Origin: Phoronis australis
Lineage: Eukaryota; Animalia; Phoronida
Assembly (NCBI GenBank): GCA_002633005.1
Contig: NMRA01000698.1
Location: 1 to 64,000 of the forward strand
Length of the DNA: 64,000 nucleotides
Direction: 5' to 3'
The notes under the pieces are model-generated. The model did no database searches. It worked only from the letters and a program-made list of their open reading frames with translations, and had not been told where the DNA came from. The stretch's first letter is position 1. Each line of letters begins with the position of its first letter. Position numbers and translations under genes: made by a program. Shown piece by piece: positions 1,814-58,768 of this stretch.

Positions 1814-1828
1814 CTTCTTTTCTCCTGA

Positions 1829-18536: not shown

Positions 18537-33272
<14,736 letters not shown>

Positions 33273-35113: not shown

Positions 35114-35496
35114 CTAGTGTTTAAACTGTAATTTTTAACATTCTGTCGCGAAGTCTCCAACAAATGTGACGCATTCCGAAATCGTATCGAAACTCCGCGA
35201 ACTCCATCCTTCTTGTTTTGACTTGCTGAATAATCCTAGACGGACTGACGACCTACAGGATTTTCGATTGGTTAATTTTACGTTAAATAGGTCAAACTGA
35301 ATGAATAAAACATGCGTGTGGAGTTCTGTTTTTCAATAAATGTATTTTTTTCTCGAAGTTAAAGTGGCATTGAATTATTTCTAAAATGCGCTCTCCATGG
35401 GCATTCTATGCGTTGACGTGTTTTTGGAGACAGCGATCTTTTGACTCGAATGGTTTTTGGTCGTCGGGAACAGAATCGGATGACTTCCGCAACATC
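35114..35496. promoter_or_regulatory. Candidate bidirectional promoter shared by DCAF8 (-) and LIPE (+), including a probable non-coding first exon of DCAF8
   Basis: The first coding exon of DCAF8 begins at an acceptor (TTGTAG| at 33286), so an upstream exon is required; a candidate donor TAG|GTATGG lies at 35114. The stretch is locally CpG-rich, with an inverted CCAAT (ATTGG at 35267-35271) and an ETS-like ACTTCCG near 35483. The LIPE ATG is at 35497. Confidence 0.55.
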
Positions 35497-38400: not shown

Positions 38401-41400
38401 CAGTTTCAGCAACTACATTTACTGTCAGACCTTACATACTAAAAGCTGTTGACAGTCCAGCATTTTGTTGGTTATTTATTTTTACATACTGAAATCAAGG
38501 ATTGTAGGTTTGTTTTCAGTGTTAAATAGATTGGTCACTGATTCTTAGTATTTGACTGTGTTGCATCAGCCATAAATATTGTTAAAAAGAGTAAGTGTCA
38601 ACAAACCGCCTCTTAAAATAGTTACATATGAAGTGTTAATTAGATTTTAAAGTTGTGTGGTTAAAATCCTAGTTGAAAAGTGCCATGAATAGTACATGTC
38701 TGTGGACTGATGAGTTTTACAGCTGAAAGAAGTCCTCTTGTCTACCTACACTACTGTTTGGGATACTGAGCTCTATCTGTCAATCATTTTGGGTGCTTGA
38801 GTTCTGGTTGGTCAGACAGAAAACTAGGTCAAACATGAGATCCATGCCTCCTTTTATTTTGCAGCTGATCAGAACCACAAGAAGTGCAGACATTTCATTT
38901 TGCAAGTCTTTCTGGAAACTGGGTGATTCAGAAATCGTACAGGTGATTAAAACTTCTAATGTACTGTGTTTTTTTTTCTAAATCTTCAGTAAGTCATAGT
39001 CGTCAAGTGAGTGTATTTGTTGAGGTCCCGCCTGGAACAATGTCCTCTGTATCTTGTAAACTTTCTCTGTATCTTGTGCTCATTGAGGCGGGGATTGGTG
39101 CTCAAAGTTAGGACAAGATTTTGCATTTTTGCTGAGAAACAAAGTTTGATATATATGCAGCAAAAACCACAGAGGTCATCTCACTGAATGCTAAATTAGA
39201 TGTTGACAACACAAAATGAAAAGTATTTCAAGTTTGATGAGTTTGGATATGCTTGGGTAGAGGTTCATAGGTAAACAAGTCATGCCAAACATTGTTTTGA
39301 CTAGACAGTGGGAATAACTGACTCCAACAGATAAAAGAGGACACATTTGCATGGATCTGGATTCCTGCAAAGATTGAAGTATTTGTCAGCCACATCTGTG
39401 CGTCTATTGTAAATACCTTTTTAAAGCCATCTAATCAACTTTTTCTATGTCATCTGGTGTGTTTGTTATTGTTTACTTGTAATGCTGGGAATGGGATTAA
39501 GTACAACGCTGTTATGTACAATTCAGTCTAAATATTATCTCAGTCTGAAAATTGTTGATTCTTGGAAACAAGTATAAAATGTAGTTCTTGATTTCAAGAT
39601 TCTCTCATGTCATTTATCAATCAATTTCAGTCCTGCTTAAGAGAACATTTACTCAAGATTTCTTATTACACTTAAAGTGAAGAACAAAACACCCAATTCC
39701 TCTGGAAAAGTCGACTAAAGCATTCACCAGGTGCCAAGACAGCTCCAATAATTTTTATTATAACTTTTTTCTGTAATTTATTTAAGTATGGACAAATCAC
39801 CATATTAATTCCCGTCCCCACTTTATCTGTATGAGACCACTTGATTACTACGTGTAAATAGTTTCATGGGGTTCAGGCGTTAATCCAGTGACCTGTGCTA
39901 CTGTTCCTGTGATCACAAACTTGACCACATATTGTTAATGTGGTGTTACGCAGACACCAAGTCTGAATGACAGCAAATGGAGCGTGTGTGTTCCCCTGGT
40001 GCTTGGCACTTCCAGGTCAAGCTCGTCAGACCGTGACCTTGTGGCAGATTTGGAATGAAAACAAAAATGTGACGGCGGTTAATTTTATTGGATTTGGTCT
40101 GGTAAAATANGGTCCCGCCTGGAACAATGTCCTCTGTATCTTGTAAACTTTCTCTGTATCTTGTGCTCATTGAGGCGGGGATTGGTGCTCAAAGTTAGGA
40201 CAAGATTTTGCATTTTTGCTGAGAAACAAAGTTTGATATATATGCAGCAAAAACCACAGAGGTCATCTCACTGAATGCTAAATTAGATGTTGACAACACA
40301 AAATGAAAAGTATTTCAAGTTTGATGAGTTTGGATATGCTTGGGTAGAGGTTCATAGGTAAACAAGTCATGCCAAACATTGTTTTGACTAGACAGTGGGA
40401 ATAACTGACTCCAACAGTTAAGAGGACACATTTGCATGGATCTGGATTCCTGCAAAGATTGAAATATTTGTCAGCCACATCTGTGCGTCTATTGTAAATA
40501 CCTTTTTAAAGCCAACTAATCAACTTTTTCTATGTCATCTGGTGTGTTTGTTATTGTTTACTTGTAATGCTGGGAATGGGATTAAGTACAACGCTGTTAT
40601 GTACAATTCAGTCTAAATATTGTCTCAGTCTGAAAATTGTTGATTCTTGGAAACAAGTATAAAATGTAGTTCTTGATTTCAAGATTCTCTCATGTCATGT
40701 ATCAATCAATTTCAGTCCTGCTTAAGAGAACATTTACTCAAGATTTCTTATTACACTTAAAGTGAAGAACAAAACACCCAATTTCTCTGGAACATTCGAC
40801 TAAAGCATTCACCAGGTGCCAAAACAGCTCCAATAATTTTTATTATAACTTTTTTCTGTAATTTATTTAAGTATGGACAAGTCACCATATTTATTCCCAT
40901 CCCCACTTTATCTGTATGAGACCACTTGATTACTACGTGTAAATAGTTTCACGGGGTTCAGGCGTTAATCCAATGACCTGTGCTACTGTTCCTGTGATCA
41001 CAAACTTGACCACATATTGTTAATGTGGTGTTACGCAGACACCAAGTCTGAATGACAGCAAATGGAGCGTGTGTGTTCCCCTGGTGCTTGGCGCTTCCAG
41101 GTCAAGCTCGTCAGACCGTGACCTTGTGGCAGATTTGGAATGAAAACAAAAATGTGACAGCGGTTAATTTTATTGGATTTGGTCTGGTAAAATAGTGACT
41201 ATTCAGCTAGCCGTTAATGCTGTACACAAATTAAGTTTCAAAGTTACATTGTACTTTATTTATTTTATTGTATCAGACCAGTTATTTTTTTCCGTTTCCC
41301 TCAAACAGGCCCAAATACTGGTGAAGGGTAGTAGTGTGTTGACTTTCAAATTAGGTCACAACAGGTGAGCTGTTGCAGAACGGCGCCTAGTCATCTGTTG

Positions 41401-44400
41401 GAGACCTAAAGTCTGGAGCAGTCAGCTGAACTCACTCAGGCATGAAATTGCCAAGTCCACCCAACTTAAACATGATTGATAGCATGGTTGTCATGGCAAA
41501 TGGCCTATGAGGATTTTTTCAAATGCATATTTGCTTTAACACAATCATTTTTAAAGTGAGATTTTTTGACGGAAGAATTTGTGACAACATTGAATACCAA
41601 GTTTCCCTCATTCTTGGTTACTTCAAATAAATTATCATTGCCTTTGTTACAGGCATTCATATATCCATTTGATACTCCCCTCCTCAAATGTTTACCTAAA
41701 ACAATAAAAAAGTCAAGTTTGTTCAAGTGTCTGGGTCCGTAGATACTCTCAGTACTAGAAGGGTGATCGATCCATAATTTAATGGACTAGCATTGTATTA
41801 CGATGTCTTGGTACTAAAATCCACTTTAACCACCAGTTTTGTCTTTCAGAACTTGCCGATGTTGGTTTGCCCAAAGGTGGCAGTAGATGTAGCCTTCTCC
41901 CTGCCTCCTGAGAGTTTCCAAGTCTCCAGAAATGACAAATCAGGAAAGATCACTATCCTGCCGCCTAGTGCCGGCGGTAAAACTTCACCCATTAATGTCC
42001 GTCTGATATCACATGAGTACAGGAAAGGACAGGTACTAAAGTCTTTTTGGCAGAGGGACATTTTGTCTCATAAAGTTGATTATGCGTTTTCAGTCTGCAT
42101 CATTACATTGATGTCACACCTTTGCTGTAAGCTACAACTTTGTAGACCCCAGGGGGACCGTTTCGAGAAAACTGACTTAGCTAAGACATATCTTAAATTT
42201 CAGTCAATTTTAAGATAAAACTTAAAAAAATGTCTCAAATCCGTTTCTAGAAAGAGATCTTATTGAGTTTGACTTAAGTTTTTGACTTAATTTTTTATCT
42301 TAAAATTGGCTGTCCTACTAGACGTGGAAGTTTCAAAGTTTGGTAGTTGAGACAAATATTAGACTTAGATAAAAATGAACTTGAGTCGGTTTCTAGGATC
42401 AGGCCTTAGATTTAAATCCTTGAAGAAATTCAACATATTTTTATTGACAAATTTCTGGGCGCAACATACATGGTTGGAGAGGCATTATATATTAGCACTC
42501 TAAATGTAAATGAGCGCTTTGTTTTATCTAAATTAGGTGTCCACGAATGGACGAATGCCGAGGTATTGTAGACATTGGCTTATTTGTTTGTAGGAATCTT
42601 TGGTAGCTCAAGGCAAGGATGGTGGCGTGCCACAGTCGGCGCGATCCCCATACTTACTGATCCAGTGCCACGGAGGCGGATGGGTAGCACAGTCATCAAA
42701 GACACATGAGGTAACTTGTTTTGAATCGCATATTTCTTGCTCATGAGTCTCAGGATTGAAACCAAGAGGCGTATTTGTTACTTCGTAATGGTATAACTTG
42801 TGGTTCAGTCATCGCGCATGCTTAGCACCTTCTAGACTTGGACTGCATTTGTTTTTCAATGTCATCCCTTGGATCGGTTTGACTGTTGTGTGATGTGATA
42901 AAGCATTGATCAACCGTAGGAGAATAATGTGTTTGTATACTTGTGTGATCGCTTGGTGGTGTTGGGGCTAAGTAAATGTGCATTTTTAATGAAATGAATT
43001 CAGTCAGATTCAAATCGGCTAGATATCTGTTTTGGTATGCTGTCTTGTGGGTGGTTCCACAAAGTCAGAAAAAAATGCAGTGAGCTACCAGACATTTTGA
43101 TTTGTAATTTCTGAATCAATTATGTACTTTTTGTGTATTATATAGCAATACATACGCATATTTCGCAACTTTGCACCAGCTTGGCTACTGATGTTTCGAT
43201 TCACTAGCTGACCAAAGCGCCACCTATTGTTTACACCAGTAACCAGGATGTAGCCGGATGTATTAAAATTTCCATGCTCATGATTCAGGTGTACCTTCGC
43301 CACTGGGCTAAAGAGTTGAACGCTCCTATCTTCTGCATTGATTACTCACTGGCTCCCGAACACGCCTACCCCAGGGCTTTCGAGGAATGCTACTACTTTT
43401 ATGCATGGGCTGTGAAGAACTGCAAAGCACTGGGTAGGCAAGCTTGTAAAGTCAATGATAATTGTAGGATTCAACCTTTCATATGATTGGTTTTTAACGT
43501 TCTTGTTGACTTATGCGTTTGTATTGCAACTATATTTAGTGGCCTTGAAATTTGTTAAACATGGTGGCCTTTCAAGTGATTTCCTCTTGCCAAACAATTT
43601 TGCTCTTAGATGGGTAGGTTGGTTGACAAAATATTAATATACTTTCCCACTCGTTATTGCAACAAATACCTCATGTCTAATTCTCAACTGAAAAATATTC
43701 TAATATGAAATAGGCATTTTGTGTCATGCCAGAGGGATCAATCTTAGTATACCGTTGTACCAAACCTATTGAATTTTGGTTACCATTTTCATCAATCCAA
43801 ATATGTAGCTATGCTGTGAATTTCCGAATTTTTTCTTGCTTCACTATTTATGCAAGCTTAGTGCCTGAATCCAATGAAAATTAAAGCATCAGACATCTTT
43901 TGTCTTTAAATACATAAAGTCTTCAAACAACTAAGTGCAGTGCTGTTATCCCTACTCATTTTTAAAATAATTTTGCAAGAGTTTAATTGTGAATAAATTT
44001 AAAAGTGAGAATTTTTTTATAAATTTATGGCATGGAGTAGTTTTGTTAAATTCTAAATGTGAGAAATTTTGCTTTTTACCCAGGTTCAACGGGTGAGGTG
44101 ATCTGTCTTCTTGGAGATAGTGCTGGCGCCAACCTGATGATGGTCACAGCACTCAAGATTGCACAGGAGGGGATACGGCAACCTGATGGCATCGTGTCTG
44201 CCTATGGTGTGATGGTCACAGGGTTCAATCCATCTGCGTCACGTTTAATGACAGCCATGGATCCCCTAATGCCTATTGGAATCCTTGCAAGATGTGTTGC
44301 CGGTAAGTATCCCTGAGTTGAGAAAGCCATTAAAAATTGCTTTTCGTTTTCTATGCATTTCAATGTGCCATTAATGTTTAAGTTAACAATAGGGATCCAC

Positions 44401-46859
44401 CCTCTTTTCACCCCAACGTTTGCTAAGTTATGAAAAAAGCATTCAGTTGTCGCTGTTTTAAGTGGGCTAAAGGCTGATTACATATTACATTAGTTGTTAT
44501 ATTTTCAGGTTACACCGGCATTAGCATTGAAAATGCCAAAATGCCATCAGTTGCTGAGAATCCGTTGAGTCCACTCACAAACCCTGGAAATGTTTTCTTC
44601 CCGGCCAAACCCAGCCCGTTGATCAATTCAGCTGTAACTGCAGTAAAACCGGGACTAAGCAAAGAATCTGTGAATGGCTGTTGTTGTACGTTGAATCAGA
44701 CTCCTCCGGCTCCTCACTCCGATTCAGAGGATGAAGAGGGTGAAAAGAAAACCGTGTTCTTTATCAATGGAGGGAGCAGCAGGTCGAGTAGTGAGCGAGA
44801 GGATGGGAAAGATTCCGGCCCACCAGACAACGATGCTAATAATAAACTGGCCGTCAGGCTAACGCAACCACGTAAATCGGATCCGGCTCTCAAGAAGGAG
44901 ATGATTGAAAAGTTAAAAAAGCTCGAGATTGACAAGGCGCAGATGGCGAATGACGCGCCCTGTGTTCCCTCGACCATGACAGCTACGCTGGACTATGCGA
45001 GTGAATCTAAAGAGTTTAAAGACATTCAGCAGAAGGTCTCGAGGCAGCGCTTTATGTCGTTAGGAAACAGTGGAAAGGAGGCGAAGAAGTCGGCTGTGAA
45101 CTCGTTCAGGAGTCAACATACACATCATCTGTTGAATCACCACCGCAGCCCATCAGTGCCCTCTATCTCATCCAGTATCTATTTCACTGCCCAGGTTAGT
45201 AGTTTGGTTTAGTTTGGTTGTGTGCAGATTGCTCTGTGAAGGTGTGTGTTTATATATGCATTGTCATGCAGTGTAATGCCTTCTCGTTATGGACAGCTTG
45301 CATTGTCATGCAGTGTAATGCCTTCTCGTTATGGACAGCTTGCATTGTCATGCAATGCAAACTTCAGCGGTTTCAGTCCAAACTTTATATAACTTCAGTA
45401 CACTCACTTCAAAAGCATTCACATAAAATCACCCATAATTCCTTACCACGATAGTAGGGCAGAAGGCAAATTCATTGTCAGAGTAGCCGTGTTTGTCAGA
45501 CCAGTCTTATTGTCTTATTGTCTTATTTCATTAGTGACTGAGAGAATGAAGGGGGAACTAATGAGGACGGTGGTTTGCTAAACCGTTATGTGCTTAGAAT
45601 TTTGCCACCATTTTTTTTATTTTTTTTGCTTTCATAATTTTATTCTTCAATAATATACATTGATAATTTTTAAAGGGTGAAAGGGTGAACAAGGAAAAGG
45701 GGCAAGAACTTTCACTCACACACTCGCACACTCATTCACACACTTCATCATTTAATGATAATACTACTAAACAATGTACGAGTTAAGTGTATTACAGATA
45801 TTACAGATTTTGCCACCATGATAATCACTGCCAATCACCTTTACTCTTAAAATGCTCAGCCATCATTACGGGAAGACGATATTTTGCCAGATTGTTCTTA
45901 TGAGTGTATAGTAGTTGGCTATTGATTGGTTCTAACAATTACAGCCGTTGAAAAGAGCAAAGGCTGTTTTGTCCGATATTTGGGGCCCAGTCACAGCTTT
46001 GGCTTTTGTGTTTTGATTACGTTTTGCTTTTATGAATATTTAGCATCGTGTTTTCATTTATGTACTGGCCCCCATCTGAGGTACTATAGTTGATGTAGTG
46101 GGCCTCAAAATGTCACCACAAAACTAGACACACTCTAGAAGACGTTACAGTTTTCTTTGACCTCTTTCAGGCATCAGTTACTAATCTATCCTCGTCGTCA
46201 TCCTTTGATGATCCCGACGCTGCACCTCAGAACCCACTGTATGCCTTGCGCCACGTGGACATTCCCAAAGATCCGTACTTATCTCCCTTGTTCGCTCCTG
46301 ATGACATGATCTCTAAACTGCCCGCTGTCTACCTGGTGGTAAGTTGGTGCATTGTTGTTTGTATCATTCCATCTTGTCTAGTTCCGATTGTTGAACTAAA
46401 TTTGCCTGATCCCTTGACTCAACCAAGCACGCCAAAATTGTTAAATTAATCATACTAATAATGGTAGTTATTCTGGCAATTAATTGCTTATTTTTAAAGT
46501 GCTTATTTCATCATTATCCGTCATAGTGATGCTACAGTTTGATAAATTATCTAGTCACAGTTAAATTTCATCTGGCTTCGGTTTAAGGTTTACTACACAG
46601 ACGTTTTCTCATGGACGTCATATTTTTACAGACAGGTCACTTTGATCCTCTACTTGACGACTCTCTTACGCTCGCTAAACGCATCAGGAAGCTGGGGGGC
46701 AAAGTTCACGTGGATGTCTTGGACAGTCTGCCCCATGGTTTCCTAAACTTTTCATTGGTCAGCCCAGAGGCGCAGAAAGGTTCAGAGTTGTGCATGTCAC
46801 TTGTGAAAGAGGTGTTCAACTCCAAAGTTTTGATAAGGGCACGAAGTGAAGCCAGTTAA
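35497..46859 (+). CDS. LIPE: Hormone-sensitive lipase, about 857 aa. 10 exons: 35497-36090, 37570-37725, 38865-38942, 41850-42032, 42594-42710, 43289-43433, 44084-44302, 44509-45194, 46171-46338, 46632-46859
   Basis: GT-AG junctions with compatible phases (2574 nt including the stop). HSL N-terminal domain: [45 protein letters not shown]. Oxyanion motif HGGGW, then [14 protein letters not shown]. Nucleophile motif GDSAG. Regulatory insert, then DPYLSPL. Catalytic Asp in FDPLLDDS and catalytic His in LPHGFLN. Confidence 0.95.
39024..41194 (+). repeat. Tandem direct duplication of about 1.09 kb (39024-40109 and 40111-41194) separated by a single N; probable uncollapsed haplotypes in LIPE intron 3
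   Basis: Both copies start ggtcccgcctggaacaatg and end ggtctggtaaaata. They differ by scattered SNPs and a net 2-bp indel. The junction is exactly the n at 40110. Confidence 0.9.
42152..42406. mobile_element. Palindromic AT-rich MITE in a LIPE intron
   Basis: Left end ggggaccgtttcgagaaaactgactta; reverse complement of the right end aggcctgatcctagaaaccgactcaa. Internal inverted pair caattttaagataaaa / ttttatcttaaaattg. Confidence 0.55.
45257..45354. repeat. 42-bp VNTR, 2 full units plus a partial unit (copy 1)
   Basis: Unit tgcattgtcatgcagtgtaatgccttctcgttatggacagct. Confidence 0.92.
45612..45806 (-). mobile_element. 5'-truncated retroposed insertion (non-LTR 3' end or processed fragment) with a poly(A) tail and a 13-bp TSD
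   Basis: Flanked by the direct repeat attttgccaccat (45599-45611 and 45807-45819). The T-tract at 45611-45627 is a minus-strand poly(A), with a minus-strand AATAAA at 45644-45639. The insertion is absent from the duplicate copy, which has a single attttgccaccat near 48097. Confidence 0.85.
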
Positions 46860-46891
46860 CCATGTACTTACTGGGAGGTGGCATGAGATTC

Positions 46892-47030
46892 NNNNNNNNN
46901 NNNNNNNNNNNNNNNNNNNNNNNNNNNNNNNNNNNNNNNNNNNNNNNNNNNNNNNNNNNNNNNNNNNNNNNNNNNNNNNNNNNNNNNNNNNNNNNNNNNN
47001 NNNNNNNNNNNNNNNNNNNNNNNNNNNNNN
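46892..47030. other. Assembly gap (run of N)
   Basis: Read directly from the sequence. Confidence 0.99.
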
Positions 47031-49149
47031 GAGGATGAAGAGGGTGAAAAGAAAACCGTGTTCTTTATCAATGGAGGGAGCAGCAGGTCGAGTAGTGAGC
47101 GAGAGGATGGGAAAGATTCAGGCCCACCAGACAACGATGCTAATAATAAACTGGCTGTCAGGCTAACGCAACCGCGTAAATCGGATCCGGCTCTCAAGAA
47201 GGAGATGATTGAAAAGTTAAAAAAGCTCGAGATTGACAAGGCGCAGATGGCAAATGACGCGCCCTGTGTTCCCTCGACCATGACGGCTACGCTGGACTAT
47301 GCGAGTGAATCTAAAGAGTTTAAAGACATTCAGCAGAAGGTCTCGAGGCAGCGCTTTATGTCGTTGGGAAACGGTAGAAAGGATGCGAAGAAGTCGGCTG
47401 TGAACTCGTTCAGGAGTCAACATACACATCATCTGTTGAATCACCACCGCAGCCCATCGGTGCCCTCTATCTCATCCAGTATCTATTTCACTGCCCAGGT
47501 TAGTAGTTTGGTTTAGTTTGGTTGTGTGCAGATTGCTCTTTGAAGGTGTGTGTTTATGAATGCATTTTCATGCAGTGTAATGCCTTCTCGTTATGGACGG
47601 CTTGCATTGTCATGCAGTGTAATGCCATCTCATTATGGACAGCTTGCATTGTCATGCAGTGTAATGCCTTCTCATTATGGACAGCTTGCATCGTCATGCA
47701 GTGTAATGCCTTCTTGTTATGGACGGCTTGCATTGTCATGCAGTGTAATGCCTTCTCATTATGGACAGCTTGCATTGTCATGCAGTGTAATGCCTTCTTG
47801 TTATGGACGGCTTGCATTGTCATGCAGTGTAATGCCTTCTCATTATGGACAGCTTGCATTGTCATGCAATGCAAACTTCAGCGGTTTCAGTCCAAACTTT
47901 ATGTAGCTTCAGTACACTCACTTCAAAACCATTCACATAAAATCACCCATAATTCCTTACCATGATGGTAGGGCAGAATGCAAATTCATTTTCAGAGTAG
48001 TCTTGTTTGTCAGACCAGTCTTATTTCATAAGTGTCTGAGAGAACGAAGGGGGAACTAATGAGGATGGTGGTTTGCTAAACCGTTCTGTGGCTAGAATTT
48101 TGCCACCATGATAATCACTGCCAGTCACTTTTACCCTTAAAATGCTCAGCCATCATGACGGGAAGACGATATTTTGCCAGATTCTTCTGATGAGTGTATA
48201 GTAGTTGACTGTTGATTGGTTCTAACAATTATAGCCGTTGAAAAGTGCAAAGGCTGTTTTATCCAATATTTGGGGCCCAGTGACAGCTGAGGCTTTTGTG
48301 TTTTGATTACGTTTTGCTTTTATGAATATTTATCATCATGTTTTCGCTTATGTACTGGCCCCCATCTGAGGTACTATAGTTGATATAGTGGGCCTCAAAA
48401 TGTCACCACAAAACTAGACACACTGTAGAAGACGTTACAGTTTTCTTTGACCTCTTTCAGGCATCAGTTACTAATCAATCCTCATCGTCATCCTTTGATG
48501 ATCCCGACGCTGCACCTCAGAACCCACTGTATGCCTTGCGCCACGTGGACATTCCCAAAGATCCGTACTTATCTCCCTTGTTCGCTCCTGATGACATGAT
48601 CTCTAAACTGCCCGCTGTCTACCTGGTGGTAAGTTGGTGCATTGTTGTTTGTATCATTCCATCTTGTCTAGTTCCGATTGTTGAACTAAATTTGCCAGAT
48701 CCCTTGACTCATCCAAGCACGCCAAAATTGTTAAATTAATCATACTAATAATGGTAGTTATTCTGGCAATTAATTGCTTATTTTTAAAGTGCTTATTTCA
48801 TCATTATCCGTCATAGTGATGCTACAGTTTGATAAATTATCTAGTCACAGTTAAATTTCATCTGGCTTCGGTTTAAGGTTTACTACACAGACGTTTTCTC
48901 ATGGACGTCATATTTTTACAGACAGGTCACTTTGATCCTCTACTTGACGACTCTCTTACGCTCGCTAAACGCATCAGGAAGCTGGGGGGCAAAGTTCACG
49001 TGGATGTCTTGGACAGTCTGCCCCATGGTTTCCTAAACTTTTCATTGGTCAGCCCAGAGGCGCAGAAAGGTTCAGAGTTGTGCATGTCACTTGTGAAAGA
49101 GGTGTTCAACTCCAAAGTTTTGATAAGGGCACGAAGTGAAGCCAGTTAA
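47031..49149 (+). CDS. LIPE: Second copy of the LIPE 3' end (partial exon 8 at 47031-47498, exon 9 at 48461-48628, exon 10 at 48922-49149); probable alternative haplotype
   Basis: 47031-49181 repeats 44727-46891 with few substitutions (NSGKEAKKS vs NGRKDAKKS; TNLSSS vs TNQSSS). It begins immediately after the N-gap and lacks the HGGG and GDSAG exons. Only this copy continues into the long 3' UTR. Confidence 0.85.
47561..47868. repeat. 42-bp VNTR, 7 full units plus a partial unit (copy 2)
   Basis: Same unit as 45257-45354. It generates the repetitive spurious ORFs at 47522-47965. Confidence 0.95.
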
Positions 49150-49551
49150 CCATGTACTTACTGGGAGGTGGCATGAGATTCCTAATGGTACTATTGTATT
49201 TTTATTTCAATACGAAAATCCATGTTTACTGATTTTGTATTGTCACCAGTTTATATTACTTTGTTTTAGCTATTATGCTAGTTTGACTCGCATTCCCGGG
49301 TTCCAAAGAATTCGCAGTTTTTACTAGTTACTCAATATCCCATTTAGGGATGCTTTCTTTGACCCCGGGGATCCAAAAGCCAGAAATGTCTCATTTTTAT
49401 TTTCTGGTTTACTTTATGTTAACATGCTGAGGTGCTGTTGGGAGATTTCCTAATTTGTGGTATTTATGCTAGACTCAAATGACTTGCATATTTCACTACT
49501 TTACTGCAGTGGCGCTATGTGTGTTCCAGTCATTGAGAAATCATTTTTCAT

Positions 49552-49632
49552 TTGGTTGTTACCAATTTAGCTGGCCATTGGTTGTTACCAATTTAGCTTG
49601 CCATTGGCTGTTATCAATATAGCTGACCATTG
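49552..49632. repeat. 26-bp tandem repeat, 3 copies, in the presumed LIPE 3' UTR
   Basis: Unit ttggttgttaccaatttagctggcca. Confidence 0.85.
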
Positions 49633-51560
49633 AGTCGACTGTTGCTGTAAAGTGTCACCAATTTCCGCCAAAGATTTTCACCAACATTACCTTTCTTTCA
49701 TTTTTCGAGACCTAATGTTTTGAGTGCCAATTCTTTTTCAAAAAGTGTGCGATTTTCTTTGTATGGTGCAGAATTTGGAAGTGGTTAAGCCTTAATTCAG
49801 TGCTATTTATCTTATATGAAAATTGAGAAAAATTTTTGATTGTCTTATTAATTTTTTTTGAAATAAGTAAAATTTTTGTCCTAAATTGGTGACTTTTACA
49901 ATTGATCGATTGCAATTTATAGGTTTAAATTTTTTGTACATTTCTCAAAGTTTATAATGGTATTTATTCTCTCATTCTTTGGAGTCTGTATGTTAACTTT
50001 CAAAATTCTGATTTCTTGAGCACAAAGTTTATGTAGTTGATAGTACAGCCTTGAGATTATGGTCTCGCAATATTATGAGAAATATAAGACAGCCCAGTAA
50101 ATGGGCAGAAAGCCAGTAGAAATAATTCATGTTATTTCTGATTTTTGTTATATGTCTGTATTTTAAACTCTTAGTTTTTTACTACTGAAATTAGTTTTAA
50201 TCGATGCGTTGACTTATTCTGTTATGGTAGTGCGTGCGGTATATTTGATTCACTAGAAAATCTCTAATATTGAATGAAATAGGTCTTAAACAAAATTTAC
50301 GAACATTGAGTGGCCTTTTATTGTAACATTGAATTGTTGTAGAACATTCAGATCACTATTCAGCACGAGGATTACACAACTTGGCTTCAGACAGGAACAA
50401 CTGGTTAACGATGTGAAATGCCATCGTAGGAGTAGGATTTAACCCGACATTACCCTGTCACCCTGTCCCTACCCACCCCTCTCGATATTTGAAACTAAGG
50501 GACTTGCAGACTTTTTTATTCGTAAGTATGGTTTATTGTTGCGGCGACAAATCAGTTGGGACTTCTGAGATTTTAAACATGTTTAGTGAGAATTCAAGTT
50601 AAGAAAATCCAAGCATTTATTTCTATTGAAACAGTTACTAAATTCTAAGTTTAAGCCCCTGGGAGGCACTTATGAACATTCCCACACCAGACTAATGCAA
50701 TAACTCGAAGACCAGGGAAATGGCCACCCAAGGCAGCTCCAAATGACAACCTCCCCCATACCAGACGACACCAGAGAGGGTGAAATACCCACCCTAGTTG
50801 GCGGCATGTCCCTACCAAATCCTCTTATGGGAGAGCCCTTGGGGTTATGTGGTCAGTGTGGAGCATTGTATATGTTGTTGCTATGGAATCAGTCTCTATG
50901 TGTTAAGTTGGTCTATTATTTATGAAGGCAATGATCAATGCAAAGAATGACATTTCTCTTTAATTGTGTATTAATTTTGAAGAAAGCTCGCATTTCGGTT
51001 ATAGCATTATTTTGTTTGATAATCCTTATATGTAACTGTATTTCAGCACTCCTTTCAATATCATTAAAACATGAAAATGTGATTTCTGCAAAGCCAGTGG
51101 TTGTCAAAATATAACAGTAGTTACTACTGAGAATAGCTTGTAGTCATAACAGAATCATGACCCTAATGCTTACTATTGGACCAAAATGATGTAACTGGCC
51201 ATTAGAAATATTTGATCATTGTACATTGTAATTACATATTACTTCCATTTATTAATTTTCAGACACATTCTTGGCTAGTTAACATTCCACTAAATTTCGT
51301 GGCTTTGGTCGCAGATAAGCATTTTTCTGACATCCCTGTCATTTTTACAAATGGAAAGTGTATAAATACAAATATTTCGAAAGAACTAGTATTTTAATGT
51401 CATATTTTAGTTGACAGTCTGCGTACACATTTCAGTACCCAGTTGTATCAAGGACTTATATCCAAGATCAGCTCGAAACTTATGGAGAACATCCAGTATT
51501 GTGTTCGAGTATCCTTGAAACCAAAGGGTGGCAACATGTCGATGTCAAGTCTAAGATTGC

Positions 51561-54500
51561 CTAAAGCGAAGCGTCTTTCTCAATTGCTTCCAGCATACTG
51601 CGAGTGACGGGGGCGATGGAACTTGCGGACAGGATTTTGTTGTTTTGTTGGCGATTTGTTGCGTTTCTGATACGATCTTTCACATTGGGATACTCACTGA
51701 TAATCTGCAAGGTCAAATAATTCCCTGAAAACTCCTGGAAGGCTCAGCCACACAAGTGGCACCTTCTAAAGCTGCTATGAGCCTGCGCGTTCCGGAAAAA
51801 CGTACACGATTTACACCCCTTGCTGCAAGAAAACTAAGTTACTTGGTTAGACGAGTAGGAGTTTTGGGCGTGGAAAGTTAAGAAGGACTTTGCGTTGGTG
51901 CCTGAAACCATGTTCGGACGCCATCAGCCAACTTATTGAACCTGGTCGCTAAACTTTAAATTAGAACGCTTAAAACGTCATTGCTAATGCATCCTCAAAA
52001 GACAGAAGGCGTGGTAGTAGCCGATATTTTTGTCTGGAACGCACAGATCATGCCATAATATCGATGAAGACGAACGTTTATAACAGTGGATCTTTACTTT
52101 GAAATAGCATTAACACGTGGCATTGTTTAAAAAGCTAGTACATTTCGCCGTGTTTTGCTGGCTGAAAACGATAATAGAATTGGGCCTTTTACTCTTATCA
52201 GATTGTTTTCATAACAAGGCTTACAATAAAAGGATTCTATTTCCTTTACCAACATTAACGTGCAGTGCTGTAGTGGTAAAATTAGAGGTAAGTAGGCGCT
52301 TAACGCCCACTGTATCACTTTGAACACTGAACGTAACTTACGGAGGCGCAACCTTCAAAAACCAAAAGGTGGTTGGCTGCGCCTACCTACTCCTACGCCC
52401 CACTACAGCAATGTTAACGTGGAAACCATCACCGGCTCTGGAACGTTTATTGGAGTTGGCCAACCATAACATTTCTACATCGAAAAATGGCACCATTTAC
52501 ACGTTGCCGGACTTGAGTTTGCAACGGAAATAACAAAAGCTATAACAACAGACTGATAGAATAAGGGAAAGCAACTTCTTGAGTCATGCATGCAACAAAA
52601 GCCAGAATTTGATTATTGTTTTGAACCAGCTAAACACAAATGCAGCTTTCACTCCAAGTATGGGATCTAAAATTGGTCGAAACTGACTGTGTATTATAAG
52701 GCCTCTTAAGTAAGGCGAAATTCTAAAAGAGCCAATGCGGAAATAAAACACCTTCAGTAGTGTTTCTAAAATACGCAAAAGGCAGTCGCCTAGTTCCTGT
52801 TTCAAAGCTGGCAAAGCTTGTCACAATCTCATTCTAGATGAATGCTTTTCAGTGTCATTGTGAATGGTGAACGGTGCTCAGGCTAGTGATGACCACCGAA
52901 TGTCGTCATTTCCGGTTTATAGGAGTTGCATTCAGTTTATTCAGAGTGACGATATACTTTTAAAACCTGCATTTTGACCCAGTTTACTAGATGCCATTTG
53001 GGGTTTCAACACAAAAACACGCTCATCAGATCTTGGATTGTAACAATGCCATTTTTCAATTCCGCAAAGTTAGGATTTGCCACTGAACTTTGAAGCGTAA
53101 TAACTCGAGTCGCTGATGATTTCGATGTTCTTGTTCGTAACGAAAATAGAATCTGTAAAAATATTTTATGACCATGAGAGTAAAAGGTAAAATTTGCTTT
53201 TTGATTTTGGCCAGCTAAACAGGATGAAATGCAGCTTTAACTATCTAAAGAAATATTTTGAAACATTAACTTACAAATGAAGTAGCGTCAAGTTTGTGAT
53301 TTCTGTCAGAAAATCAAGTTTTAATGATTTAGGCAACTTATCGTCAACTAAAAGTGGCGTTCCACAATTTTTGTCGGGGATGTAATGCGTTGTCATACTT
53401 TAGAGTGTTTGAAACATCCATCAATTCATATCGATTCACCTCTACATTATCCCGCGGTATAATTTTGCTCACGGAATTCGGAGATAACCTACCAAGACCA
53501 CCAACTTACTACCTGCGGCAGTAGGGTACTGAGAAGATTGGTGTACCGACTGTCAACATGAGCTTACCTGCTTGAAGGCCTTGCAAGATAAGTAGTATAT
53601 ATAGGTGTACCCCATGGATACTACGTTGCAGGTGCATGCCGTTTGTTCCAGTACGGAGATTTCTGAAACAATTATTTGATATTATCCTTGTCTGGAATTT
53701 GGTAGGGGTGCGTAATGTGGGATTGCAGCTAGTCATTTGTTTGAAAACAGTAAACGGAAGCCAACTCGAAAAGGGGTGTGAGATAGCAGATTTTTCACAC
53801 TTAATGCTTCATTTCAGTAAAAAAAATTAAAGCAGCCTGACTGAGTGAAAGCGTATCCCAAATTGATACTCTCCTGACATAACATCAGTTTTCCAAATAA
53901 ATACAATGGAATTTATCGATTTGATTTTAAAACATAATCGTGCCATCAAAGTTGAATGACAGGGAACTCACTTACGAATGCATAAAATTTGACTGAAAAA
54001 ATAAACACAAATGCAGTAGTAGTAAGTTGCAAGGTATTGAACTGACGGGCGGAAACTGGTAGCTTGGTTTTCACCTATCGTACGTATTGATTGTTTTCCT
54101 TTGTTATGTCTTTGTTGGATATAACAATACTGGTCGCATGGATATCGTTCCTTGGGAGTACATCACACGGTTAACGAAAAAATGCTGGTTAGTAACAACG
54201 GGAACAATGGAGACGCTAATCCACCGATCTTTATTCGATCAGCTTGCGACCTGGCTTCGCGACGCCGCCGCAAAATGTTCGAATTTATATTTCTAAGGAT
54301 GGCATTTATTCAGAGTTCTTAGCTAGTGGAAGCAATGCAACAACAAATTTTAAAACATTCGCTTCTGTCTAGCGAACATATCTCTTTGTCATAGTCTTTT
54401 TTCTTTGTCCATAAACCGTGTAGCCTATTACGCATACTATCCCCAAGTTATACCGCAATCGTTTTTCAAACCAGCAGCAGCAAGTATAATCGAAAACTGT

Positions 54501-57500
54501 TTTCACCGAGAAAAATAGACTACTTGCTAAATGTATATACTTCACAAAATTATTACCTCCAAAGAGACTGCCGTCCTGTAAAGTTGCCAGAAGCGTACCG
54601 TCTGACTTAATACAGGCCACTTTTCCCGTCTCGATGAAGTACAAGTTGGATCCATTCTCCCCTTCACGTACAATGACATCGCCAGGCAAGAATATATCAA
54701 AGTCCATATTCTCGCACACTTCAAGAATAAACTCTCGAGGAGCATTGGCAAATAAGGCAGACTTACAAACGAGATCTCGACAGATGAGATGCATAATCTC
54801 TCGCTTAATATTTGGATTAATATTTCCGAGCAACTCATGGGTGTCGAAATACTTTAAGTTGTACTTGATCGCAAAGTACTCTTCTACTTTGTTTCGAAAC
54901 TGTTTTGGCAGACGATGGAGCTTCATGAATTCGAGGGTTTCCTCGACCTTCTCGTCATACTTGTTGCTCGATGTGTCGGACAACATCACGAGGTGGTTGA
55001 GATTGGCGATAAACAGCGCGTAGCAAATATTACCAATCCACACGCTGACCATGACCGAGGCAATGTCCGTCAACGTGCCGGGGGTGTACTGTCCATAACC
55101 AATGCCCAGCATGTGAGAAATGGTCCTGAACAGACCCCGAAAGTAAATGACGAGGGCTTCTTCGTTAACCAGACCTTCTTGAGCAACCCAGCTGTCTTTG
55201 AAACCAGCCACGTTAGCGACTAGATACTGCAAACATGCGTTCCAGTGTTGCAGCAGGATAAGGACGACCACGACCACAATGAATCGACGAATGGTGGCAC
55301 GCAAAGATATCAGATTGCCTACTTTGAACCTGTAGCGATAGAGGCGGGCGAGACGGATGACACGCAAGAACACGAAATACGGTGTATACTGCTTAACATC
55401 ACCCACGCTATCCATTAACAGGTCCATGGGTAGGGACCCAGGTAAAGTACAAACTACGTCTAAGACGAAGAAAGTCTTTAAGTAGCGCTTAGCCACCACA
55501 CACGAGTCCAGCACAACTGACGTTTTGATGATGTCCTCAATATAACCACTTCTGAAGTTGACCAGAATGTCCATTACAAGCAATAAGTCTCCTACGTGGT
55601 TTATTGTTGACCAAAGTCCCCCGGACTCCATTTTCCTAATACTATCGAAGCTCCACGTTATCGGGGTACTGACAGCTAGGAGAAGAAAAAGCAGGACCAT
55701 CAAAACGTCCCAGAACATTCGACATATGCTGTAAGGATGAATGACATAGCGATCCCAAAACGGGAGCGCCTTCTGACGCTCTCTTTCGGCTATTATGGAC
55801 TGGTGGCTCTTAAACATCTTGCGACAAGCGGAGTTCCCCGTGAACGAAATCTGCAAGAAAACAGACCATGGAACGATATCACTGAAAACCCTTTTTGCTC
55901 AAGGTTATGTTCGACCCTAGAACAATGACTTAATGTGCTTTGTGAATTTTATGAAAGTTGCATAAAACGAAAAGGAAATGATAACTTGGAAACTGTAACA
56001 GCGTTTGTGAGATTTCATCTTGAACATTTATGTTGTCCTGTTGTTTGTTGTGAATGTGCCTTTCTTGTTTGTTGGATCTCCAAGCAAGATCACGTGACCT
56101 AATTAGTGGAAGATTTACATAATAGTCAAAAAGCAAATTCTAAGGAATTTTTACGTTTAGAAAATAATATACTTTTGCCGAGTTAAGTTTAAGAGCACTG
56201 TAGATAATTGGCTAAGTGTACAGACTTGTCGATAAGGTCTTACATACCGTTAATGGGATTAGAAAAATTTCTGATACCAGTAACATCATGGCGGAGTGAT
56301 TTAATGTTGCTTAAACCGACAGACTACAATATGTGCTTACTTAAAGAATAGCTTATTTCTTAATTAACACAATATGCTATTAGTACACCATGTCTGCACA
56401 ACGTGTAACCATTTTTGGTCTTTATCGGCAAGATAGTCTACAGAGGTTTCATACATTTATGTTGAAATTGATACAGTTACCTACTTTTACATTTACATGT
56501 ATGGTGGTAATATTGAAAGTGATGTTGCATTCCCCTACGCGTATTTAAAGCTAGGTCTAAATGTAAATATGTATATTAATGAACATTAAAAACTAAAGGC
56601 CATTGTTTTGGTTCGTGTGTGTTTTGAGATGCAACCTTTTTATTTTATGCTTCAGCGAGTTGGCGTTCCTAATCACATTCATATACTCTGGGATCGAATG
56701 AAGTTCGTTGGTTCAACGGGAATAGACCCGGTCACAAACTTGGCTTATTCGAATTTGGAATTGGCGGCGTGAGCTTGGCATACGATAAGCGACGCCTAGG
56801 AGAAAAGGAGAATTTTTCCGTAAATAATAATGAGAACCAATACAATCATCCACGCGGATGGCCCTTCCAAAAGTGCTAGTCTAGATGACAAAAAAGGTGT
56901 GTGGTTTTTCTTTAAATTTTAAGTACAGGGGCGGATCCAGGATTTTGAGTTGGGAGGGCAGGGTAGAATATCAGTCAGGATTTTGCTCGTCAGACACTCG
57001 CAGCCTCAAACTGCCAAATGGAACCTGGAAGAATTTGTTTTTGGGGCATGGCCCCTTTATAAGTTGTATGTCACTACCTACAAAGCACTAAGTCCTACTA
57101 GTTTCACTGCCAATTCCTTTCTGACAAAATGTTTATTCTGACAGACGGCTCAATGATACTCAGGTTCGAGTTATTTTTAATTGAATATGTGGAGACATAT
57201 TTTCAAGAAATTGCAACAGCTTTTTGTGCGATTGCTTTTGTGTTGATTTCAAGATAAATATGTTGTTATTTTCTAGATCTATGAATCCTCAACGTGAAAT
57301 CAAAGGCATTCTTAATAAAAATCCGTATTTTAAAACGTTTCGTTGAGCATACATAAACTCTTTAAAAATATGCCAATGAAAGTTTGAAACATCATTCCTC
57401 CTAATAGCCGAACATTTCCGAACTAACATATGAGGTCAGAGAAAATTGCACCGCTTGTCGTGCGTTTTTTAAAGTGGTGCGATAATGCCTTCTTTTAGTT

Positions 57501-58080
57501 GTCCATCGTTTCAAAGTGAAAGTCACCTGATGTTAGCTTACGATTTCTTCCTTTACAACCAGCGCCACCAGACGCCAGCTGAGAGGCATTGGTTTCAAAA
57601 TGAGCAGGCTGCAGACCAGAAACAATGGCCTTATAAAAAACCTATGTTTTTAGAGAAATGTTGCAACTAATGTACCGCAGACAAGAGTTATACTTTGCGA
57701 ATGCGTATACCCGGCAAAAACAAGAGCTGCATTTCTCGGGTTCGTTTTACTGAACAGAAAACAAAGTTCTTTTGATAATACCCAATTTCGAGTACGGCCG
57801 CTAGGTGCTACTTTGGCGGCAACGTTACAATTTGTTAGTAATTCAAAACTTGACTTAGGCCTACCATGATGAGGTTTTCGACACACGCCTTGAAATTATC
57901 ACGTATCGTCTCAGATATTGAGCGACTTGTTACCACTGGTTCCTCTACGTCATCATGCTTCTTGTGTGATAAGTCTGCTGGCAAGGCCTCCTTTAAATTT
58001 ACTGGTGAAGCCTCCCCGGGATAGTCAACAACAATTTCTGGTACTGATAGAGACTTGTGTTTTGAGTCTGAATGGTCCAT
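51561..58080 (-). CDS. Divergent HCN-family (hyperpolarization-activated cyclic-nucleotide-gated-like) channel, about 582 aa. 4 exons: 58080-57865, 55850-54557, 53662-53568, 51704-51561
   Basis: HCN-domain-like segment NSACRKMFKSHQSIIAERERQK...YVIHPYS..RMFWD. S2/S3 region DILVNFRSG and KRYLKTFFVLD. S4 LRVIRLARLYRY. S5 HWNACLQYLV. Pore FRTISHMLGIGYG. C-linker DTSSNKYDEK...FMKLHRLP...LFANA. CNBD FLPGDVIVREG..LYFIETGKV..LQDGSLFG/EISVL...YYLSCKAFKQ/IISEYP. Splice phases 0, 1 and 0 are consistent (1749 nt). Exon 1 is the least certain. Confidence 0.88.
52135..52646. mobile_element. Inverted-repeat (MITE-like) relic in the last intron of the HCN-like gene
   Basis: gtgttttgctggctgaaaacgataatagaattgggcctttt (about 52150-52190) matches the reverse complement of 52596-52637 (gtgtttagctggttcaaaacaataatcaaattctggctttt). 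Confidence 0.5.
56926..56960 (+). mobile_element. End of a CAGGGGCGGATCCAGG-type non-autonomous DNA element; partner end not clearly found
   Basis: caggggcggatccaggattttgagttgggaggg. A more degenerate relative appears at about 17032-17160. Confidence 0.4.
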
Positions 58081-58768
58081 AATTTGTACCAGTAGCAGAC
58101 GTGAAACAACTCGGAAAACTAACTGTATAGTTGATTCCTTTCCTTGTGTTTGAGATCAGAGATTGTATTACGTAAACGTGACTGCGTCTTTTACTGCTTG
58201 AAAAGTGTGTCACGTCATTCATTATTTGTCACAGAGGGCTCCAAGTTGCATAAAGCAAGGAGTGTAGTACAATTGCATTACACTCCTTGCTTAAAGTAGT
58301 ACTAATGGTATGATCAAGCTCTCACGGGCAAAACGACTCGCTGATGACCGTCCTTGCTCCAAAACCGATTTGTTACTCAATAGGCACTTTTATTGGTTGT
58401 ATAGTCATGCTTGACTGAAGTTAAGCAAAATGAATGTCTGAGTATGTTTGTATGTATGAAAATATGAATGTAATCGAGAACTTTTTTGCCATTTTATTTA
58501 ATATCTTATATTGTTATGGCCAAAATATTTCTTATTCAGGGGTGAACAACTTTTCACTCGAAACCGACCACGTATACCTCCAACAAACGCTGCCAGGCCA
58601 CTATCACCATAGCTGCTGTGGCTAGTTAGCTACGGACGCTTCCATACATATGGCGCAAAATTAATGGTAGTGGGGAAATCTATCTCATGTAGTTTGACTG
58701 CCAGAGAGATTTTAGTGTCCAGTGGTGACGTCATGGGTTAAGAATAAGAAAATGTCTTGGATTGTTGA

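What the first reader, a model, noticed from the sequence alone, without database searches (positions are those of the whole stretch)
51561..58080. Rewired HCN-like channel: intact fold but altered voltage sensor, filter and ligand site
Seen in sequence: an uninterrupted spliced ORF with HCN domain, S1-S6, C-linker and CNBD. Three HCN-defining modules are all changed: S4 and the S4-S5 linker, the selectivity filter, and the cAMP pocket. Established: canonical HCNs are very conserved at these sites, and divergent relatives can gain new functions (zebrafish sperm HCNL1 conducts protons through its voltage-sensor domain). Inference: this may be an undescribed invertebrate HCN-like subfamily with different gating, ion selectivity or ligand, possibly specific to sperm or cilia.
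Basis: partly seen in the sequence, partly recalled or inferred. Interest (0 to 1): 0.8.

Follow-up and report, generated by a model that had tools for sequence, protein, structure and literature searches.

The report
Pacemaker-channel cousin uncoupled from cAMP
This invertebrate has an intact, spliced gene, active in only some RNA samples, for a fast-evolving relative of pacemaker (HCN) ion channels that keeps the potassium-type pore and the main voltage-sensing charges but lacks the key cAMP-binding arginine and the residues that make HCN channels open on hyperpolarization, so it is predicted to be a cAMP-blind channel with different voltage gating, which nobody has tested.

Summary
The gene is real: four exons on the minus strand, 582 aa, no stops. 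All three joints are read in two RNA runs (64 and 70 reads) and in none of a third that expresses the neighbouring lipase gene well. It is HCN-family by sequence and fold, about 33% identical to its best relatives.

The cAMP arginine is lost (C513), and so are the outer S4 charges. The filter is only mildly changed (GIGYG; the GYG is intact, and 18 of 182 relatives also have Gly there). The S4-S5 length is normal for invertebrates, and the two gating arginines are kept. The telling changes lie in the gating-polarity residues (S272, W281, E282, N300 equivalents).

Trees favour, without proving, origin in a second bilaterian HCN lineage that includes the uncharacterised sea-urchin sperm SpHCN2, rather than canonical Ih channels or fish HCNL. 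All 21 members examined lack W281. No orthologue was found, so a new subfamily is not shown.

Best reading: a cAMP-insensitive cation channel, leaky or depolarisation-biased, possibly in gametes. The scan noted shark HCN-like genes elsewhere, not this lineage. New variant of a known kind.

The parts
57865..58080 (-). Exon 1, coding part (72 aa, low-complexity N-terminus, ATG at 58080)
   Evidence: joint 55850/57865 in 32 and 19 reads; some reads end near 58133
54557..55850 (-). Exon 2 (1294 nt): HCN domain, S1-S6, pore, C-linker, first part of the CNBD
   Evidence: read depth 20-36 in X1 and X2, 0 in X3
53568..53662 (-). Exon 3 (95 nt): phosphate-binding cassette of the CNBD
   Evidence: joints 53662/54557 and 51704/53568 in reads
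51561..51704 (-). Exon 4, coding part: C-helix, short tail and stop codon
55578..55580 (-). L163, at the charge-transfer phenylalanine position (human HCN1 F186); Phe in 47 of 47 canonical and second-lineage rows
55371..55409 (-). Outer S4 (residues 220-232): the four outer positive charges and the mid-S4 serine are replaced
   Evidence: register is uncertain beyond P229, model pLDDT 71-74 here
55335..55364 (-). Inner S4 (R235, R238, R241, R244 kept); helix-break position is A240 instead of Ser
55317..55325 (-). KVG (248-250) in place of the QWE coupling motif
55092..55106 (-). Selectivity filter GIGYG (321-325)
53634..53636 (-). C513 in place of the cAMP-phosphate-binding arginine (human HCN1 R549)
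51648..51650 (-). Q554 in place of the conserved C-helix arginine (human HCN1 R590 by offset)
51248..51560 (-). 3' untranslated region with polyadenylation-like hexamers starting at 51398 and 51253; converges on the 3' end of the lipase gene

Best explanation
This is an intact, spliced gene, expressed in some samples only, for an HCN-family channel subunit that likely descends from the second bilaterian HCN lineage (the one holding sea-urchin sperm SpHCN2) and is predicted to form a cation channel that ignores cAMP and would no longer open specifically on hyperpolarization. Shown: gene structure, splicing, on/off expression, HCN fold, and the residue changes. Inferred, in steps: (1) it would assemble as a tetramer, since the HCN domain, the C-linker and its Lys393/Glu423/Asp463 positions are kept; (2) the central pore would conduct K+ and Na+, since the pore helix and GYG are among the best-kept regions; (3) S4 would still sense voltage through R235 and R238; (4) the parts that turn a downward S4 movement into opening are gone (S272 to Ala, W281 to Val, E282 to Gly, N300 to Val), so the gate would be largely uncoupled and give a standing or depolarisation-biased current rather than Ih; (5) the CNBD would act as a structural module without cAMP control. 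A role in setting membrane potential in gametes or gonad is a guess from the lineage and the on/off expression.
For: Intact ORF and three joints in X1 and X2; none in X3, where the neighbouring lipase joints have 5-12 reads against 0-8 in X1 and X2. 56 of 79 positions that are near-invariant in both HCN lineages are kept despite about 33% overall identity. Pore helix plus filter is 55% and inner S4 55-62% identical to relatives, against 6-7% for outer S4 and 13% for the C-helix. R267 and R270 dominate the HCN1 gating charge (PMC6904216 and PMC13095418, passages), and their equivalents are kept. Hydrophobic residues at S272 favour depolarisation activation in chimeras (PMC6904216). Deleting QWE gives a voltage-independent open channel, and changing W355 with N370 inverts polarity in spHCN (PMC7078272, passages). 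R549E lowers cAMP affinity 1000-fold (PMC10825183, passage); Arg is present there in 46 of the 47 A and B rows, the other being a truncated model. Lineage: the best 9 of 69 placements all lie on spiralian branches of the second lineage (summed weight 0.80); the best 3 of 13 do so under a site-heterogeneous model (0.65); profile score 411 against 381 bits; K248 and an aliphatic residue at 249 match that lineage (K/R in 20 of 21, aliphatic in 21 of 21) and not the canonical one (Q 23 of 26, W 24 of 26).
Against: No current has been measured; all function is transferred from point mutants of other channels. The QWE-deletion channel was open in the presence of cAMP (PMC7078272), which this protein probably cannot bind. 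Hydrophobic S272 mutants of wild-type HCN1 reached the surface but gave no current (PMC6904216), which fits a silent subunit as well. The S5-S6 closed-gate pair (R261, D364) is kept. The lineage is weakly resolved: at 21 strictly diagnostic sites the protein matches the second lineage at 5, the canonical one at 4 and neither at 12. The careful tree has no well-supported set that holds it (56/100). The 199-row FastTree put it with long arthropod branches outside both lineages. Under the site-heterogeneous model neither canonical placements (AU 0.06-0.13) nor placements among non-animal relatives are rejected. The tissue of X1 and X2 is unknown.
Confidence: 0.45

Rival explanations
1. A silent or modifier subunit: it does not conduct alone but co-assembles with a canonical or second-lineage HCN subunit and dampens cAMP sensitivity or shifts gating.
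For: Assembly regions are kept while control modules are lost. Hydrophobic S272 mutants of HCN1 are non-conducting (PMC6904216). Sea-urchin sperm carry both HCN1 and HCN2 (about 10,000 and 18,000 copies per flagellum), and whether they co-assemble is stated to be open (PMC7024835, passages). Several S6 gate positions differ (H392 to N, T394 to N, Q398 to M).
Against: The pore helix and GYG are among the most conserved parts, as expected of a conducting pore, though a heteromer needs them too. No partner gene could be looked for, since no genome is held.
Confidence: 0.22
2. Still a hyperpolarization-activated Ih-type channel, only cAMP-insensitive and with a shifted voltage range; the lost outer charges matter little.
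For: All four inner arginines, three counter-charges, the R261-D364 pair and the S4-S5 length are kept. The model superposes best on HCN1/HCN4 (Z 29). Plant KAT1 opens on hyperpolarization with a different S4 (PMC13095418, passage).
Against: All four residues known to set HCN polarity (S272, W281, E282, N300 equivalents) are changed together; E282 is kept in 45 of 47 A and B rows and N300 in 42 of 47.
Confidence: 0.15
3. An independently evolved HCNL1-like gating-pore channel: with no arginine above R235 and Leu instead of Phe at the constriction, hyperpolarization opens a proton or cation path through the voltage sensor.
For: The position equivalent to HCNL1 M169 is uncharged (Q226 by simple register), as are the next two; the constriction Phe is L163, against Phe in 159 of 182 rows. 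It is probably cAMP-insensitive like HCNL1, and sample-restricted. One uncharged S4 position is enough for proton flow in HCNL1 (PMC7306766, passages).
Against: HCNL1 and HCNL2 have degenerate filters (PMC7306766), whereas GYG is intact here. HCNL ancestry is disfavoured (AU 0.041 and 0.045). The outer S4 register is uncertain because of the deletion and P229.
Confidence: 0.1
4. A duplicate under relaxed selection that is decaying and has no distinct function.
For: Very long terminal branch (3.2-3.7 changes per column); no orthologue found; dN/dS could not be computed.
Against: 582 codons without a stop or frameshift at this divergence; 56 of 79 near-invariant sites kept; precise splicing and 5-10 times the depth of the neighbouring lipase gene in X1 and X2; no indel listed in the coding exons.
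Confidence: 0.06

Closest known systems
SpHCN2 of Strongylocentrotus purpuratus sperm (NP_001028182, 638 aa) and its lineage: Lingula XP_013401461, Tubulanus XP_074659485, Owenia CAH1788601, Apostichopus PIK50004, hemichordates
   Same: Likely the same lineage; short overall length; no Trp at the QWE position; basic residue before it; Ala at the S4 break in the four spiralian rows closest in the tree; Cys often absent from the filter (Ser 16, Gly 4, Cys 1 of 21).
   Different: Those proteins keep the outer S4 charges, the constriction Phe (21 of 21), E282 (21 of 21) and both cAMP arginines (20 of 21; one truncated). Identity is only about 33%. SpHCN2 has the filter SIGFG (PMC9614928), and its selectivity is stated to be unknown.
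Canonical HCN/Ih channels (human HCN1-4, sea-urchin SpIH, arthropod Ih; PDB 5u6o, 6gyn)
   Same: Domain order and fold (Z 29, rmsd about 3 A over about 420 residues); GYG; inner S4 arginines; C-linker charge positions; Gly-Glu of the phosphate cassette.
   Different: Outer S4 charges, S264, S272, QWE, N300, F186 and both cAMP arginines are replaced; 32-37% identity.
Zebrafish HCNL1 and vertebrate HCNL1/2 (Wobig et al. 2020, PMC7306766)
   Same: HCN-derived; uncharged residue at the M169 position; cyclic-nucleotide insensitivity (shown for HCNL1, predicted here); restricted expression.
   Different: HCNL filters are degenerate and non-conducting, here GYG is intact. HCNL keeps most S4 charges, and the HCNL-clade rows shown keep the Trp. 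HCNL branches from vertebrate HCNs, and this gene probably does not.
Ciona intestinalis ciHCNb and ciHCNc (Jackson et al. 2012, PMC3487815)
   Same: Precedent for an invertebrate HCN duplicate that diverged asymmetrically; ciHCNb has a large voltage-independent current.
   Different: The Ciona sequence in my trees (ciHCNa by its 671-aa length) lies in the canonical clade; ciHCNa and ciHCNb keep cAMP facilitation and hyperpolarization gating.

Membership tests
HCN family (broad, by ancestry and architecture) | HCN domain + S1-S6 + C-linker + CNBD in one subunit | tested here: met
   the model was built from an HCN-rich alignment, so the fold match is not independent
HCN family (broad, by ancestry and architecture) | Closer to HCN than to CNG, KCNH, plant or bacterial CNBD channels | tested here: met
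   phmmer E about 1e-75 for HCN against 1e-31 for CNG and 1e-30 for EAG; Z 29 against 22-23. No CNG or named KCNH outgroup was in the likelihood trees.
Canonical HCN / Ih channels | Long S4 with about eight basic residues interrupted by a serine | tested here: not met
   only the four inner arginines are in register; outer positions S, D, Q, P, and V for the serine
Canonical HCN / Ih channels | S272 break residue, QWE motif and N300 | tested here: not met
   A240, KVG, V264
Canonical HCN / Ih channels | CIGYG filter | tested here: not met
   GIGYG; GYG itself kept; Gly at the first position in 18 of 182 rows
Canonical HCN / Ih channels | cAMP-binding residues (phosphate-cassette Arg, C-helix Arg) | tested here: not met
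   C513 and Q554; G503, E504 and T514 kept. The cAMP role of the C-helix Arg is recalled, not from a call.
Canonical HCN / Ih channels | Hyperpolarization-activated Na+/K+ current modulated by cAMP | not testable with these tools
   needs electrophysiology
Canonical HCN / Ih channels | Nests in the canonical clade | tested here: inconclusive
   excluded at 99/95 and AU below 0.05, but not rejected under PMSF (AU 0.06-0.13)
Second bilaterian HCN lineage (SpHCN2-type) | Nests in that clade | tested here: inconclusive
   best placement; weights 0.80 and 0.65; contrary tree; diagnostic sites 5 against 4
Second bilaterian HCN lineage (SpHCN2-type) | Basic + aliphatic residues in place of Gln-Trp at the end of S4 | tested here: met
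   K248, V249; K/R in 20 of 21 and L/M/I in 21 of 21 rows; Val itself is not seen in those rows
Second bilaterian HCN lineage (SpHCN2-type) | Presence in sperm flagella | not testable with these tools
   sample tissues unknown; on in 2 of 3 raw-read runs
HCNL proton channels | Degenerate, non-conducting filter | tested here: not met
   GYG intact
HCNL proton channels | Met (uncharged) at the third S4 charge position with the other charges kept | tested here: inconclusive
   uncharged (Q226) but the neighbouring charges are lost too, and the register is uncertain
HCNL proton channels | Nests in the vertebrate HCNL clade | tested here: not met
   AU 0.041 and 0.045, both marginal; profile score 330 bits against 381-411
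HCNL proton channels | Proton-selective current through the voltage sensor | not testable with these tools
   needs electrophysiology

The most novel reading that the evidence does not exclude
The second bilaterian HCN lineage (SpHCN2-type, abundant in sea-urchin sperm, never recorded) is a family of HCN-derived channels with non-canonical gating polarity, and this gene is its extreme form: a naturally depolarisation-activated or leak channel with no ligand control, or a two-path channel that passes K+/Na+ through its GYG pore and protons through a gating pore evolved independently of fish HCNL1, used in the gametes of a spiralian animal.
Probability: 0.2. Interest if true: 0.8.

Novelty: new variant of a known kind. 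Interest (0 to 1): 0.5.

Why it matters
Why HCN channels open on hyperpolarization while their relatives open on depolarization is an active question, studied so far mainly with engineered mutants at S272, QWE and N300. This gene is a natural, expressed protein in which all those positions changed together while the gating arginines and the pore stayed, so one recording would test the current model. It also points to a wider and cheaper test: all 21 members examined of the SpHCN2-type lineage lack the coupling Trp, and 10 of 21 have a hydrophobic break residue. SpHCN2 outnumbers the classical subunit in sea-urchin sperm flagella (PMC7024835), and its selectivity is stated to be unknown (PMC9614928). 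Limits: a single sequence from one species, no orthologue, no measured function, and divergent HCN-like paralogues are common (fish, arthropods, tunicates).

Tried and rejected
No whole genome is held, so paralogues and a second, conventional copy could not be sought. No RNA holder was listed by the word index; three raw-read runs and one contig set were offered by species label. The contig set X4 shows no coverage of the exons, which proves nothing.

The word-indexed protein search with exon 2 gave no hit among 7996 candidates, and a search with a lipase exon, meant to place the organism, gave none among 598. The organism's group is therefore only inferred (marine invertebrate, probably spiralian). 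The ESM Atlas returned generic ion-transport and HCN-like clusters and does not hold the sequence.

Folding without an alignment failed (pLDDT 40); the alignment-based model (pLDDT 91) covers exon 2 only, so the cAMP pocket was not modelled. No complex was predicted, because a tetramer exceeds the size limit.

Strictly diagnostic sites did not separate the two lineages. dN/dS could not be computed without an orthologue. The idea of a deleted S4-S5 linker was rejected: the four missing residues are an insertion in vertebrate and some arthropod sequences. The idea that the Gly in the filter is unique was rejected.

A paper search for HCN2 S4 charge mutants by residue number found only unrelated papers; my recollection that neutralising the outer charges shifts the voltage range without changing the slope was not verified and is not used. 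Searches for a published description of the second lineage showed none in the listings; the library lacks most subscription papers, including the original SpHCN2 cloning paper. No supplements were read; the alignments and trees in the supplements of PMC4640657 and PMC7306766 may bear on whether this lineage was already drawn.
Full report
Gene structure. The region holds one gene on the minus strand with four exons (58080-57865, 55850-54557, 53662-53568, 51704-51561) and GT-AG introns; they give 582 codons and a stop. Stranded RNA reads confirm all three joints exactly: 32, 19 and 13 reads in run X1, and 19, 21 and 30 in X2. Exon depth is about 20-36. Run X3 has no joint read and no exon depth. 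As a control I laid the same runs on the neighbouring lipase gene: its seven listed GT-AG joints have 5-12 reads in X3 against 1-8 in X1 and 0-6 in X2. X3 is therefore a good library in which this gene is off. About 18-19% of each run was read. The tissues are not known. No insertion or deletion is listed in the coding exons, and none of the differences shown lies in them, but 30 and 134 lower-ranked rows were not displayed.

Family. Exon 2 aligns end to end with human HCN1 and HCN4 (E about 1e-75), far ahead of CNG (1e-31) and EAG (1e-30). An AlphaFold model of exon 2 from a 73-sequence alignment is confident (pLDDT 90.6) and matches HCN1/HCN4 structures at Z 29, ahead of plant and CNG channels at 22-23. 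That is partly circular, since the alignment was HCN-rich. Among 1.84 billion cluster representatives, the best 150 hits are at most 39% identical. The best full-length match is a Lingula protein at 33%, nearly tied with canonical arthropod HCNs. No orthologue was found.

What is changed and what is not. I use human HCN1 numbers, taken from the alignment. Kept: R267, R270, R273, R276 (R235, R238, R241, R244), three acidic counter-charges (D160, D166, D203), R297 and D401 (R261, D364), the pore helix and GYG, C-linker K393, E423 and D463, and G503-E504 and T514 in the phosphate cassette. Lost: the four outer S4 charges and S264, with a shorter S3-S4 stretch; F186 (L163); S272 (A240); Q280-W281-E282 (KVG); N300 (V264); R549 (C513); R590 (Q554). 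Of 79 positions at least 90% conserved in both HCN lineages, 56 are kept. Identity to relatives is 55% in the pore helix and filter and 55-62% in inner S4, but 6-7% in outer S4 and 13% in the C-helix. This is targeted loss on a conserved scaffold. Of 198 aligned relatives, 182 had all sites aligned: 18 have Gly at the first filter position, 22 lack the cassette Arg, 11 lack all four outer charges, and 2 combine lost outer charges, lost Arg and intact GYG or GFG. Both of those lie among the distant non-HCN rows; one carries PAS domains.

The filter change is minor. GIGYG or GIGFG occurs in starfish, a unicellular holozoan and others, and a review reports that Cys-to-Ala at this site left the HCN2 reversal potential unchanged (PMC9614928, passages). 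HCNL1, by contrast, has lost GYG (PMC7306766, passages). The S4-S5 stretch is not shortened relative to invertebrate HCNs. The voltage sensor keeps the two arginines that carry most of the gating charge in HCN1 (PMC6904216 and PMC13095418, passages). The more telling change is in the residues that set gating polarity. Hydrophobic residues at S272 favour depolarisation activation in chimeras and silence wild-type HCN1. Deleting QWE gives an always-open channel in cAMP, and the W355N/N370W pair inverts polarity in the sea-urchin channel (PMC7078272, passages). W281, E282 and N300 are central in the coupling model of PMC10317503 (passages). The cAMP claim holds: R549E makes HCN1 virtually cAMP-insensitive (PMC10825183, passage).

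Ancestry. A profile search and cluster look-ups revealed two well-supported bilaterian groups: the canonical Ih clade, and a second clade with brachiopod, nemertean, annelid, hemichordate, echinoderm and probably sea-spider members. The second includes the 638-aa S. purpuratus protein NP_001028182, whose SIGFG filter matches what PMC9614928 gives for SpHCN2. The window protein sits on a very long branch. It joined the second clade in a 109-row FastTree (0.94) and a 55-row PMSF quick tree (SH-aLRT 99, with a long-branch warning). It did so weakly in a 34-row careful tree without the sea spider (56/100). A 199-row FastTree instead drew it to long arthropod branches outside both clades. The 55-, 34- and 37-row sets were hand-picked from the 199 rows and left out the long arthropod sequences. 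Placing it on each of 69 branches of a fixed 36-row backbone, the best nine placements were on spiralian branches of the second clade (summed weight 0.80); placements among unicellular relatives were not rejected (0.19); all canonical and HCNL placements had AU below 0.05. With site-specific frequencies on 13 of the 69 placements the order held (0.65), but canonical placements were no longer rejected and HCNL only just. Profiles scored it at 411 bits (second clade), 381 (canonical) and 330 (HCNL); the more diverse profile may be favoured. Strict diagnostic sites were uninformative, 5 against 4 of 21, while the end of S4 is of the second-clade type. I put this ancestry at about two in three.

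Mechanism. Some of the rewiring looks inherited: all 21 second-clade rows lack W281, 10 have Ala or Val at S272, and 17 have Trp at F143. On top of that, this gene lost the outer charges, F186, E282, N300 and the cAMP arginines. The simplest reading is a tetramer with a conducting GYG pore and a sensor that can still move but is poorly coupled to the gate, giving a standing or depolarisation-biased cation current that cAMP does not tune. A silent modifier subunit, a cAMP-blind but otherwise ordinary Ih, and an HCNL1-like gating pore are the rivals. Sea-urchin sperm flagella hold about 10,000 HCN1 and 18,000 HCN2 subunits (PMC7024835, passages). With the on/off expression this makes a gamete role plausible, but nothing here shows it.

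Novelty. Divergent HCN paralogues are known (HCNL in fish, ciHCNb and c in Ciona: PMC3487815, passages), and the databases hold many unstudied ones in arthropods. The cnidarian study PMC4640657 (passages) and the survey PMC7576140 (passages) did not describe this second bilaterian lineage in the passages I saw. Six paper searches listed nothing on it. The coral sperm paper PMC8640785 (passages) reports a conventional HCN only. All papers were seen as keyword passages, not whole. Earlier scan notes had nothing on this sequence and two on shark HCN-like genes of the HCNL side. Verdict: a real, expressed, unusually rewired HCN-family gene; a new variant of a known kind, not a shown new subfamily; interest 0.5.

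Noticed in passing
proteins P0003, P0034, P0188, P0197, P0280 and relatives: A second bilaterian HCN clade that includes SpHCN2 lacks the coupling Trp in 21 of 21 rows, has Trp at the F143 position in 17 of 21 and Gly at R404 in 19 of 21, while keeping cAMP arginines; it may not gate like Ih.
   Followed up: partly
window 44727-46891 and 47031-49181: The last exons of the hormone-sensitive lipase gene occur twice, 97% identical, on either side of the N gap at 46892-47030; reads split between the copies. Probably an assembly artefact.
   Followed up: partly
window 35374-51350 (+), 20151-33308 (-), 1370-1828 (-): Neighbours by translation: a hormone-sensitive-lipase-like gene ending tail to tail with the channel gene, a DCAF8-like WD40 gene and an SLC22-like transporter exon. 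These names are recalled from the motifs and come from no family search.
   Followed up: no
window 50500-51100 against 51561-58080: The RNA reads differ from the assembly at many sites in the lipase 3' UTR, but no difference is listed in the channel's coding exons; low diversity, a sweep or a haplotype switch in the assembly are possible. The tables were truncated.
   Followed up: no
window 54557-55850: One 1294-nt exon spans HCN domain to CNBD. The next intron, inside the Gly-Glu of the phosphate cassette, seems ancestral, since several truncated database models break at the same point. Partial intron loss is possible.
   Followed up: no
proteins P0118, P0131, P0149, P0261, P0262, P0266, P0268, P0275: Arthropods (beetles, springtail, mosquito) hold very divergent HCN-like proteins with degraded S4 and, in most, no GYG; they may be further offshoots of the second lineage.
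   Followed up: no
window 52260-52440, 53100-53240, 56000 and 56926-56975: Short repeated elements in the introns attract many partly matching reads in all runs, including X3.
   Followed up: no
window 47544-47903: A tandem repeat with a unit of about 42 bases lies in a lipase intron.
   Followed up: no
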